Virus record (IMG/VR): IMGVR_UViG_2711768002_000014
Source: a virus
Taxonomy: Duplodnaviria > Heunggongvirae > Uroviricota > Caudoviricetes
Reading direction: 5' to 3' (one strand)
DNA length: 39,760 nt
The notes below the pieces were generated by a model. That model searched no databases and was not told where the DNA came from. It saw nothing but the letters and a program-made list of their open reading frames with translations. The number at the start of each line of letters is the position of its first letter. The first letter of the stretch is position 1. The position numbers and the translations under genes were made by a program. Shown here in pieces: positions 32,221 through 35,311 of this stretch.

Positions 32221-35200
32221 ATGGGTAAAGGCAGCAGTAAGGGGCATACCCCGCGCGAAGCAAAGGACAACCTGAAGTCCACGCAGTTGCTGAGTGTGAT
32301 CGATACCATCAGCGAAGGGCCGGTTGAAGGTCCGGTGGATGGATTAAAAAGCGTGCTGCTGAACAGTACACCGGTGCTGGACAGTGAGGGGAATACCAAC
32401 ATCTCTGGTGTCACGGTGGTGTTCCGGGCAGGTGAGCAGGAACAGACACCGCCGGAGGGATTTGAATCATCAGGTTCCGAGACGGTACTGGGTACGGAAG
32501 TGAAATACGACACGCCGATCACCCGGACCATCACGTCGGCAAACATTGACCGTCTGCGCTTTACCTTCGGTGTGCAGGCACTGGTGGAAACCACCTCAAA
32601 GGGGGACAGGAATCCGTCGGAAGTCCGCCTGCTGGTTCAGATACAACGTAATGGTGGCTGGGTGACGGAAAAAGACATCACCATTAAGGGCAAAACCACC
32701 TCGCAGTATCTGGCCTCGGTGGTGGTGGGTAACCTGCCGCCGCGCCCGTTCAATATACGGATGCGCAGGATGACGCCGGACAGCACCACAGACCAGCTGC
32801 AGAACAAAACGCTCTGGTCGTCATACACCGAAATCATCGATGTGAAACAGTGCTACCCGAACACGGCACTGGTCGGCGTGCAGGTGGATTCGGAGCAGTT
32901 CGGCAGCCAGCAGGTGAGCCGTAATTATCATCTGCGCGGGCGCATTCTGCAGGTGCCGTCGAGCTATAACCCGCAGACGCGGCAATACAGCGGTATCTGG
33001 GACGGAACGTTTAAGCCAGCATACAGCAACAACATGGCCTGGTGTCTGTGGGATATGCTGACCCATCCGCGCTACGGCATGGGGAAACGTCTTGGTGCGG
33101 CGGATGTGGACAAATGGGCGCTGTATGTCATCGGCCAGTACTGCGACCAGTCAGTGCCGGACGGCTTTGGCGGCACGGAGCCGCGCATCACCTGTAATGC
33201 GTACCTGACCACACAGCGCAAGGCGTGGGATGTGCTCAGTGATTTCTGCTCGGCGATGCGCTGTATGCCGGTATGGAACGGGCAGACGCTGACGTTCGTG
33301 CAGGACCGACCGTCGGATAAGGTGTGGACCTATAACCGCAGTAATGTGGTGATGCCGGATGATGGTGCGCCGTTCCGCTACAGCTTCAGCGCCCTGAAGG
33401 ACCGCCATAATGCCGTTGAGGTGAACTGGATTGACCCGAATAACGGCTGGGAGACGGCGACAGAGCTTGTGGAGGACACGCAGGCCATTGCCCGTTACGG
33501 TCGTAACGTCACGAAGATGGATGCTTTTGGCTGTACCAGCCGGGGGCAGGCACACCGCGCCGGGCTGTGGCTGATTAAAACAGAACTGCTGGAAACGCAG
33601 ACCGTGGACTTCAGCGTGGGTGCCGAAGGGCTTCGCCATGTACCGGGCGATGTCATTGAAATCTGCGATGATGACTATGCCGGTATCCGCACCGGCGGGC
33701 GCGTGCTGGCGGTAAACAGCCAGACCCGGACGCTGACGCTCGACCGTGAAATCACGCTGCCATCTTCCGGCACCACGCTGATAAGCCTGGTTGACGGGCA
33801 GGGGAGTCCGGTCAGCGTGGAGGTTCAGTCCGTCACCGACGGCGTGAAGGTGAAAGTGAGCCGTGTTCCTGACGGCGTTGCTGAATACAGCGTATGGGGG
33901 CTGAAGCTGCCGACGCTGCGCCAGCGCCTGTTCCGCTGCGTGAGTATCCGTGAGAACGACGACGGCACGTATGCCATCACTGCCGTGCAGCATGTACCGG
34001 AAAAAGAGGCCATCGTGGATAACGGGGCGCACTTTGACGGCGACCAGAGCGGCACGGTAAATGGTGTCACGCCGCCAGCGGTGCAGCACCTGACCGCAGA
34101 AGTCACCGCAGACAGCGGGGAATACCAGGTGCTGGCCCGCTGGGACACGCCGAAGGTGGTGAAGGGCGTGAGCTTCCTGCTTCGCCTGACCGTGGCAGCG
34201 GATGACGGCCGTGAGCGGCTGGTCAGCACGGCCCGGACGACGGAAACCACTTACCGCTTCACACAACTGGCTCTGGGGAACTACAGGCTGACAGTCCGGG
34301 CAGTAAATGCGTGGGGGCAGCAGGGCGATCCGGCGTCGGTATCGTTCCGGATTGCCGCACCGGCAGCGCCGTCGCGGATTGAGCTGACGCCGGGCTATTT
34401 TCAGATAACCGCCACGCCGCATCTTGCGGTTTATGACCCGACGGTACAGTTTGAGTTCTGGTTCTCGGAAAAACGGATTGCGGATATCAGGCAGGTTGAA
34501 ACCACAGCCCGCTACCTTGGCACGGGGCTGTACTGGATAGCCGCCAGTATCAATATTAAGCCGGGCCATGATTATTACTTTTATATCCGCAGTGTGAACA
34601 CCGTCGGCAAATCAGCATTCGTGGAGGCTGTCGGTCGGGCGAGCGATGATGCGGAAGGTTACCTGGATTTTTTCAAAGGCCAGATAACCGAATCCCATCT
34701 CGGCCAGGAGCTGCTGGAAAAAGTCGACCTGACGGAGGATAACGCCAGCAGACTGGAGGAGTTTTCGAAAGAGTGGAAGGACGCCAACGATAAGTGGAAT
34801 GCCATGTGGGGCGTCAAAATTGAGCAGACCAAAGACGGCAAACATTATGTCGCGGGTATTGGCCTCAGCATGGAGGACACGGAGGAAGGCAAACTGAGCC
34901 AGTTTCTGGTTGCCGCTAACCGTATCGCGTTTATTGACCCGGCAAACGGGAATGAAACGCCGATGTTTGTGGCGCAGGGCAACCAGATATTCATGAATGA
35001 CGTGTTCCTGAAACGCCTGACGGCTCCCACCATTACCAGCGGTGGAAATCCGCCGGCATTTTCCCTGACACCAGACGGAAAGCTGACCGCTAAAAATGCG
35101 GATATCAGCGGTAATGTGAATGCAAATTCAGGGACGCTCAACAATGTCACGATTAACCAGAACTGTACGATTAAGGGCATGCTGGAGGCGACCCAGGTCA

Positions 35201-35241
35201 GAGGAGATTTCGTTAAAGCTGTATCAAAAGCCTNTCGTTGA
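32221..35241 (+). CDS. J: central tail fiber / host specificity protein J, apparently C-terminally truncated
   Basis: Very close match to remembered lambda J over about 1000 aa; ORF stops right after an ambiguous base (n at 35234), about 125 aa short of lambda J. Confidence 0.85.
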
Positions 35242-35263
35242 AATATTTATAACCCCAATAAAG

Positions 35264-35287
35264 GGCGTCAGGAATGACGCCTTTTTT
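35264..35287 (+). terminator. hairpin plus T-run between J and lom
   Basis: ggcgtcaggaatgacgcc followed by tttttt. Confidence 0.5.
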
Positions 35288-35311
35288 ATTGCAGAAAAGC
35301 GAGAGGTAATT

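What the first reader, a model, noticed from the sequence alone, without database searches (positions are those of the whole stretch)
35200..35300. J tail-fiber gene ends prematurely next to an ambiguous base
J matches lambda J for about 1000 aa, then stops (cct-n-tcg-ttga) about 125 aa short, removing what in lambda is the LamB-binding C-terminal domain. A terminator hairpin and lom follow directly. This is either a real deletion of the receptor-binding domain (defective or retargeted tail tip) or an assembly or base-calling artifact at the n.
Basis: partly seen in the sequence, partly recalled or inferred. Interest (0 to 1): 0.5.

Follow-up and report, generated by a model that had tools for sequence, protein, structure and literature searches.

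The report
Assembly gap mimicking truncated J gene
The phage tail-tip gene J only looks truncated: the single "n" marks an unfilled gap in a draft genome assembly that hides about 394 bases encoding the receptor-binding domain, so the finding is an artefact.

Summary
The J ORF (32221-35241) is 1006 aa and 96% identical to lambda J over residues 1-1004. It ends two codons after a lone N at 35234, and the native terminator and lom follow. The biological reading, loss of the receptor-binding domain, is very unlikely.

- **Source.** The window is part of a draft scaffold, GCA_001253535.1 contig CWVF01000016.1. It carries four N stretches.
- **Gap lengths.** Between flanks that match intact relatives, the relatives carry 417, 287, 394 and 28 nt where the window has 223, 573, 1 and 414 N. 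N lengths in this record are therefore unreliable placeholders.
- **What is missing.** The lone N sits exactly where nine intact relatives carry a conserved 394-nt block. That block encodes the Ig-like receptor-binding domain (Pfam PF12421).
- **Why it looks clean.** The net loss of 393 nt is a multiple of three by chance, so the native stop codon stays in frame.
- **No independent occurrence.** The junction is absent from 5,426 complete E. coli genomes, 50,697 phage records, GTDB representative genomes and IMG/VR.
- **Relatives.** Every J next to the identical Lom in ten other genomes, where a J gene was called (nine of ten), is 1132-1165 aa with PF12421.

Verdict: not a real feature. Only read mapping or PCR can formally close it.

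The parts
32221..35241 (+). J (tip attachment protein / central tail fibre) ORF as written: 1006 aa, residue 1005 = X. It holds residues 1-1004 of a roughly 1137-aa J, plus the native last codon (R) and the native stop.
   Evidence: Pfam FNIII-A_GpJ, Phage-tail_3, Ig_J, Ig_J_second, Phage_Tail_Tip; no Ig_GpJ_C; 96% identity to lambda J 1-1004
35234..35234 (.). Single N: the placeholder of an unfilled scaffold gap. Nine intact relatives carry 394 nt here (L001 6535-6928; L005 and others 3530-3923), encoding the Ig-like receptor-binding domain.
35084..35233 (+). Left flank of the gap. It is collinear with intact J genes up to the last base, and its last 100 nt are identical to L005/L010/L011/L012.
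35235..35384 (+). Right flank of the gap: last codon and stop of J, the intergenic terminator and the start of lom. It is 100% identical over 150 nt to eight intact loci.
35263..35290 (+). Native J terminator hairpin (GGGCGTCA-ggaa-TGACGCCT) followed by a T run. The same sequence follows full-length J in relatives.
35312..35911 (+). lom (Ail/Lom outer-membrane beta-barrel), 199 aa, intact. The exact protein is widespread.
30125..30697 (.). 573-N gap inside tail gene L. Relatives have 287 nt here, so the N length breaks the L reading frame.
37495..37908 (.). 414-N gap inside the side tail fibre gene. Three relatives have 28 nt here, so the N length breaks the frame.
14913..15135 (.). 223-N gap in the lysis region. 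Relatives that are 100% identical on both sides have 417 nt here.

Best explanation
The window comes from a short-read draft scaffold of an E. coli-type lambdoid prophage. The N at 35234 is a scaffolder or gap-closer placeholder between two contig ends whose true distance was not determined. In the real genome those ends are most likely separated by the ordinary 394-nt block that encodes the Ig-like receptor-binding domain of J, giving an intact J of about 1137 aa. Replacing 394 nt with one N removes a net 393 nt, which is 131 codons. The native last codon and stop codon therefore stay in frame, and gene callers report a tidy 1006-aa 'truncated' J. Shown here: the N is at the exact discontinuity; the flanks are collinear with intact alleles; and the other three N runs in the same record also have wrong lengths. 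Inferred: the missing bases exist in the strain, and the break arose because this block and its neighbours are repeated among co-resident lambdoid prophages. All four missing pieces are 28-417 nt, the size of small contigs that short-read pipelines fail to place or discard.
For: 1. The source is a draft WGS contig, GCA_001253535.1 CWVF01000016.1. The Ns are in the deposited record, and its gene calls are split at them.
2. There are four N stretches. Between matching flanks, relatives carry 417 nt vs 223 N, 287 vs 573 N, 394 vs 1 N, and 28 vs 414 N. The errors are -194, +286, -393 and +386, so N length carries no information in this record. Two of the runs would break the conserved genes L and stf.
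3. The N lies exactly at the 394-nt discontinuity in nine of nine relatives of this allele type.
4. The flanks are identical or nearly identical to intact alleles right up to the N.
5. The junction is absent from 5,426 complete E. coli genomes. This holds for megablast (N read as T) and for blastn, which tolerates a mismatch or 1-nt gap. About 1,770 of those genomes carry both flanks, and in every listed top hit the flanks lie 393 nt further apart than in the query. The junction is also absent from the phage collection, GTDB representative genomes and IMG/VR.
6. Wherever a J gene was called next to the identical Lom protein (nine of ten other genomes), it is 1132, 1137 or 1165 aa with PF12421. 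Nearly all of the 120 best homologues are 1127-1165 aa with PF12421.
7. The same cassette with its flanks is 100% identical over 681 nt in plaque-forming phages mEp332, ev243, Kati and PhiR34_1 (mEp332 is a viable K-12 lambdoid phage, PMC3442831).
8. The other tail genes on the contig have normal lengths, so there is no sign of prophage decay.
9. Gap-size estimates from paired reads are acknowledged to be hard to get right, and gap closers extend from both edges and reject closures that disagree with the estimate (GapFiller paper PMC3446322).
Against: - No reads or other contigs of this assembly could be inspected, so the presence of the missing 394 nt in the strain is inferred, not seen.
- The break points do not coincide with variable sites among the nine alleles sampled, so the exact cause of the contig break is unexplained.
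- The assembler and scaffolder used for CWVF01 are unknown. That common scaffolders write a single N for a zero or negative gap estimate is from my memory, not a tool result.
- Reconstructed full-length J proteins (this J body plus four cassette alleles) are not in the 15-billion-protein collection. No independent assembly confirms the intact version of this particular J.
Confidence: 0.9

Rival explanations
1. Real deletion: the prophage has lost the 131 codons encoding the J receptor-binding domain, giving a tail tip without its receptor-binding domain (a defective phage, or one relying on side tail fibres). The N is only a poorly called base at the junction.
For: The ORF as written is in frame and ends at the native stop. 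The scaffolder's gap estimate of one base or less would then be correct. Prophages do decay: L010 is a real remnant that keeps only the J 3' end.
Against: - A real junction would be covered by reads and assembled without an N, yet the only isolated N in 39.7 kb sits exactly on it.
- The other three gap lengths in the record are wrong by 194-386 nt, so a one-base estimate means nothing.
- The junction does not occur in 5,426 complete genomes, 50,697 phage records, GTDB representatives or IMG/VR.
- Unambiguous truncated proteins (X = F, S, Y or C) are not in the 15-billion-protein collection.
- The sequence as written is not what a simple TTC-microhomology deletion would give; it has one extra base.
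- The rest of the tail module is intact.
Confidence: 0.03
2. It is a true assembly gap, but the hidden sequence is not the canonical cassette. It could be a divergent receptor-binding allele of another length or an IS insertion, which would also explain why the assembler failed there.
For: J receptor-binding cassettes are mosaic: the lambda, strain 1190 and ESBL15 types differ (alignment A1; 48% identity between L005 and lambda over the J C-terminal ~200 aa that includes the receptor-binding domain). L014 differs at 26 cassette positions. IS elements do land nearby, as in L006. The cause of the break is unexplained.
Against: Both flanks already lie inside the ESBL15-type block, which differs from the lambda and 1190 types from about 80 nt upstream of the N and for about 30 nt downstream. 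All nine relatives sharing these flanks have exactly 394 nt between them. An IS insertion would leave the two flanks adjacent in the reference coordinates, not 394 nt apart.
Confidence: 0.06
3. Pure base-calling ambiguity: one uncertain base and nothing missing.
For: Only one N is written.
Against: 394 nt present in every relative are absent at that exact position. The Pfam receptor-binding domain is missing.
Confidence: 0.01

Closest known systems
Bacteriophage lambda gpJ (central tail fibre / tip attachment protein J, NP_040600, 1132 aa)
   Same: 96% identical over residues 1-1004 with no gaps. It has the same Pfam domain series up to Phage_Tail_Tip and the same I-J-lom-stf gene order. The domain order of hub domains, FNIII-1/2, alpha-helical shaft, central straight fibre and C-terminal Ig-like receptor-binding domain is described in PMC11101478.
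   Different: The sequence as written stops where the receptor-binding domain begins. The lead-in to the gap ([26 protein letters not shown]) is not the lambda type. The relatives' C-terminal ~200 aa, which include the receptor-binding domain, are only 48% identical to lambda's, so the hidden domain probably has a different receptor specificity from LamB-binding lambda J. That last point is inference.
1137-aa J of E. coli prophages and of phages mEp332, ev243, Kati and PhiR34_1 (for example WP_149617722.1 in strain ESBL 15)
   Same: 98% identity over the 1004 shared residues. The 3' lead-in, stop codon, terminator and lom are identical. This is almost certainly the family the window's J belongs to.
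   Different: They carry the 394-nt block, PF12421 at residues 1001-1136, that the window replaces with one N.
Scaffold-gap artefacts in short-read draft assemblies (N placeholders of estimated or minimal length)
   Same: The N is at the junction, the flanks are collinear with intact relatives, the other gaps in the same record have wrong lengths, and the breaks lie inside genes repeated among co-resident prophages.
   Different: A one-base gap is easily mistaken for a base-call ambiguity. Here it happens to preserve the reading frame and the native stop, which makes it look like a biological truncation.

Membership tests
Unfilled scaffold gap (assembly artefact) | Ambiguous base(s) located exactly at the discontinuity with respect to intact relatives | tested here: met
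   The N at 35234 aligns between L001 6534 and 6929. The same holds in nine relatives.
Unfilled scaffold gap (assembly artefact) | The sequence comes from a scaffolded draft whose other N runs are also placeholders, with lengths unrelated to the true sequence | tested here: met
   GCA_001253535.1 contig. 223 N vs 417 nt, 573 N vs 287 nt, 414 N vs 28 nt.
Unfilled scaffold gap (assembly artefact) | The junction is not found as contiguous sequence in finished genomes | tested here: met
   No match in 5,426 complete E. coli genomes, 50,697 phage records, GTDB representatives or IMG/VR.
Unfilled scaffold gap (assembly artefact) | Reads from the strain contain the missing sequence and no read spans the written junction | not testable with these tools
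Lambda-type tip attachment protein J | N-terminal FNIII-A_GpJ and hub domain (Phage-tail_3) | tested here: met
   PF24801 at residues 86-207 (E 7e-41) and PF13550 at residues 330-498 (E 1e-43).
Lambda-type tip attachment protein J | Two Ig/FNIII domains and the tail-tip fibre region | tested here: met
   PF24421 at 610-714, PF24489 at 716-818 and PF09327 at 845-972.
Lambda-type tip attachment protein J | C-terminal Ig-like receptor-binding domain (PF12421) | tested here: not met
   Absent from the 1006-aa product and present at 1001-1136 in the intact relative. It falls inside the gap, so its absence reflects the record and says nothing about the phage itself.
Lambda-type tip attachment protein J | Gene order I - J - lom - side tail fibre | tested here: met
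   Gene calls on L003, compared with lambda.
Genuine receptor-binding-domain deletion allele of J | Contiguous, unambiguous junction sequence | tested here: not met
   The junction base is N.
Genuine receptor-binding-domain deletion allele of J | Independent occurrence of the same allele or protein elsewhere | tested here: not met
   (four unambiguous 1006-aa versions are not in the collection).

The most novel reading that the evidence does not exclude
The deletion is real: an otherwise intact lambdoid prophage encodes a J protein that lacks its whole Ig-like receptor-binding domain but keeps the native last codon, stop and terminator. It would be either a freshly inactivated phage or a particle that adsorbs only through its side tail fibres.
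Probability: 0.03. Interest if true: 0.3.

Novelty: not a real feature. Interest (0 to 1): 0.04.

Why it matters
It matters only as a caution. A one-base N in a draft scaffold can hide hundreds of bases. When the net length change happens to be a multiple of three, it creates a clean-looking 'domain deletion' that gene callers and databases propagate; this 1006-aa J is indexed as a protein. Host-range or receptor predictions made from such draft prophage sequences would wrongly score this phage as lacking a receptor-binding domain. If the deletion were real, it would be a private inactivating mutation in one prophage and of modest interest.

Tried and rejected
- **Length-preserving masks.** Rejected. 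All four N lengths differ from those in relatives, and the Ns are in the deposited record.
- **Break at a conserved/variable boundary.** I tested whether the break coincides with the conserved/variable boundary of the receptor-binding cassette, or with the first SNP between alleles, which would explain a stalled gap-filler. This is not supported. The type-specific sequence starts about 80 nt upstream of the N, and the nearest variable sites among nine alleles are at -1 and +9 on the left and -17 on the right, none at the break.
- **TTC microhomology deletion.** The written sequence has one base more than that product would have, so it does not fit.
- **Independent assemblies.** I looked up four reconstructed full-length J proteins and four unambiguous truncated ones by exact sequence. 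None is in the collection, so the test is uninformative. The X-containing protein itself was also not found by that tool, although look-up of encoding contigs located it.
- **Literature search for the accession.** Searches for GCA_001253535 and CWVF01 found nothing. The assembler is unknown, so no specific pipeline is claimed.
- **Receptor of the hidden cassette.** I looked via phage mEp332. The paper held does not state its receptor.

Full report
**What is in the sequence.**
- The ORF at 32221-35241 encodes 1006 aa and ends ...KAVSKA-X-R-stop, read from 'gcc tnt cgt tga'.
- It is 96% identical to lambda J over residues 1-1004 with no gaps. Lambda J has 1132 aa.
- Pfam finds FNIII-A_GpJ, Phage-tail_3, Ig_J, Ig_J_second and Phage_Tail_Tip.
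- Pfam does not find PF12421, 'Tip attachment protein J, C-terminal receptor binding domain'. An intact relative has it at residues 1001-1136.
- A hairpin at 35264-35281 with a T run follows, then lom at 35312-35911.

**What is missing and where.**
- Against the closest complete genomes, the two sides of the N are collinear with intact J-lom loci, but 394 nt are replaced by the one N. These are L001 6535-6928 and L005-L013 3530-3923.
- The net change is -393 nt, or 131 codons. The native last codon (R) and the stop therefore stay in frame.
- Nine of nine relatives that share the flanks have exactly 394 nt there.
- The block is well conserved: 0-6 differences among eight of them and 26 in L014.
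- The last 100 nt before the N are identical to four intact alleles. The 150 nt after it are identical to eight.

**Where the window comes from.**
- The exact J product is encoded on NCBI GCA_001253535.1, contig CWVF01000016.1 (51,277 bp). The window is positions 11461-51220 of that contig.
- The record itself contains the Ns. Its gene calls split tail gene L and the side tail fibre at the N runs and call J as 1006 aa.
- The contig ends 57 nt after the window, just inside the tail-fibre assembly gene. That is another break in prophage repeat sequence.

**The other gaps show how to read the N.** The window has four N stretches. The table compares each with what relatives carry between flanks that match them closely (92-100% identical).

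| Position | Ns written | Location | Bases in relatives |
|---|---|---|---|
| 14913-15135 | 223 | lysis region | 417 |
| 30125-30697 | 573 | gene L | 287 |
| 35234 | 1 | J 3' end | 394 |
| 37495-37908 | 414 | side tail fibre | 28 |

- Gene L is 699 nt in both complete relatives.
- The errors are -194, +286, -393 and +386 nt. N length in this scaffold carries no information.
- The L and side-tail-fibre runs would break conserved reading frames if taken literally.
- The lone N is simply the smallest placeholder, and its error is of the same size as the others.
- All four missing pieces are short (28-417 nt) and lie in genes shared among lambdoid prophages. These occur at a median of 2-3 and up to 13-17 places per E. 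coli genome. Such spots are typical of where short-read assemblies fragment. This last point is inference.

**Is the junction seen anywhere else?** No.
- A 50-nt junction query finds nothing in 5,426 complete E. coli genomes. This holds with megablast (N read as T) and with blastn at a threshold that admits a mismatch or 1-nt gap at the N.
- About 1,770 of those genomes carry both flanks. In every listed top hit the flanks are separated by the extra 393 nt.
- There is no match in 50,697 phage records, GTDB representative genomes or IMG/VR.
- In the nine of ten other genomes where a J gene was called next to the identical Lom protein, it is 1132, 1137 or 1165 aa with PF12421.
- Nearly all of the 120 best homologues are 1127-1165 aa with PF12421, and the closest are 98% identical 1137-aa proteins.
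- The intact block with its flanks is 100% identical over 681 nt in isolated phages such as mEp332, ev243, Kati and PhiR34_1. mEp332 is a plaque-forming K-12 lambdoid phage (PMC3442831).

**Weighing a real deletion.**
- A real deletion junction would be spanned by reads and assembled without an N.
- A real deletion would require a rare event never seen in thousands of finished genomes, plus a contig break exactly at its junction.
- The written sequence is also one base longer than a TTC-microhomology deletion product would be.
- The rest of the tail module has normal gene lengths.
- I put the real-deletion reading at about 3%.
- A further 6% goes to the possibility that the gap hides something other than the canonical cassette. 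That is disfavoured because both flanks already lie inside this cassette type and all relatives have exactly 394 nt between them.

**Biology of the hidden part.**
- In lambda, gpJ runs from hub domains through two FNIII domains, an alpha-helical shaft and a beta-prism fibre to a C-terminal Ig-like receptor-binding domain. The loops of that domain contact LamB, and the C-terminal part of J determines host specificity (PMC11101478).
- Over the C-terminal ~200 aa of J, which include the receptor-binding domain, the relatives are only 48% identical to lambda.
- The strain's J therefore probably recognises a receptor other than, or differently from, lambda's. This is inference and was not pursued.

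**What could not be done.** The GapFiller paper documents that gap closers extend from both edges, reject closures that disagree with the estimated size, and depend on gap-size estimates that are hard to get right (PMC3446322). That scaffolders write one N for a non-positive estimate is from my own memory.

**Verdict.** Interest is very low.

Noticed in passing
window 39758-39760 and L003 17541-17597: The source contig ends only 57 nt beyond the side-tail-fibre stop, just inside the tail-fibre assembly gene. This is another assembly break in a gene family repeated among E. coli prophages.
   Followed up: partly
window 35084-35233: The J 3' end is mosaic. Positions about 35109-35133 carry the lambda/strain-1190-type bases, while the last 100 nt are of the ESBL15/L005 type. 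This points to a recombination joint just upstream of the receptor-binding cassette.
   Followed up: partly
window 30125-30697 and 37495-37908: The N runs inside tail gene L (573 N for 287 nt) and the side tail fibre (414 N for 28 nt) make both genes look split or frameshifted in gene calls. These are the same kind of artefact as the J 'truncation'.
   Followed up: yes
L010 (GCA_030183535.2 JARTND020000001.1) about 2990-4600: A real decayed prophage. The J 3' end with the receptor-binding cassette and lom lies directly downstream of a holin gene, with no J gene called.
   Followed up: no
L006 (CP162393.1) 3252-3870: An IS200/IS605-type Y1 transposase is inserted between the J stop and lom in an otherwise similar locus.
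   Followed up: no
proteins P0001-P0013: Over-long J homologues of 1190-1720 aa, several from Shigella sonnei drafts, carry extra CarboxypepD_reg or Y_Y_Y domains. They may be J fusions or further assembly or gene-calling artefacts.
   Followed up: no
window 14300-15800: The lysis region (holin EssD, lysozyme, YdfR, a DNA methyltransferase nearby) is 100% identical to several complete E. coli genomes on both sides of the 223-N gap.
   Followed up: partly
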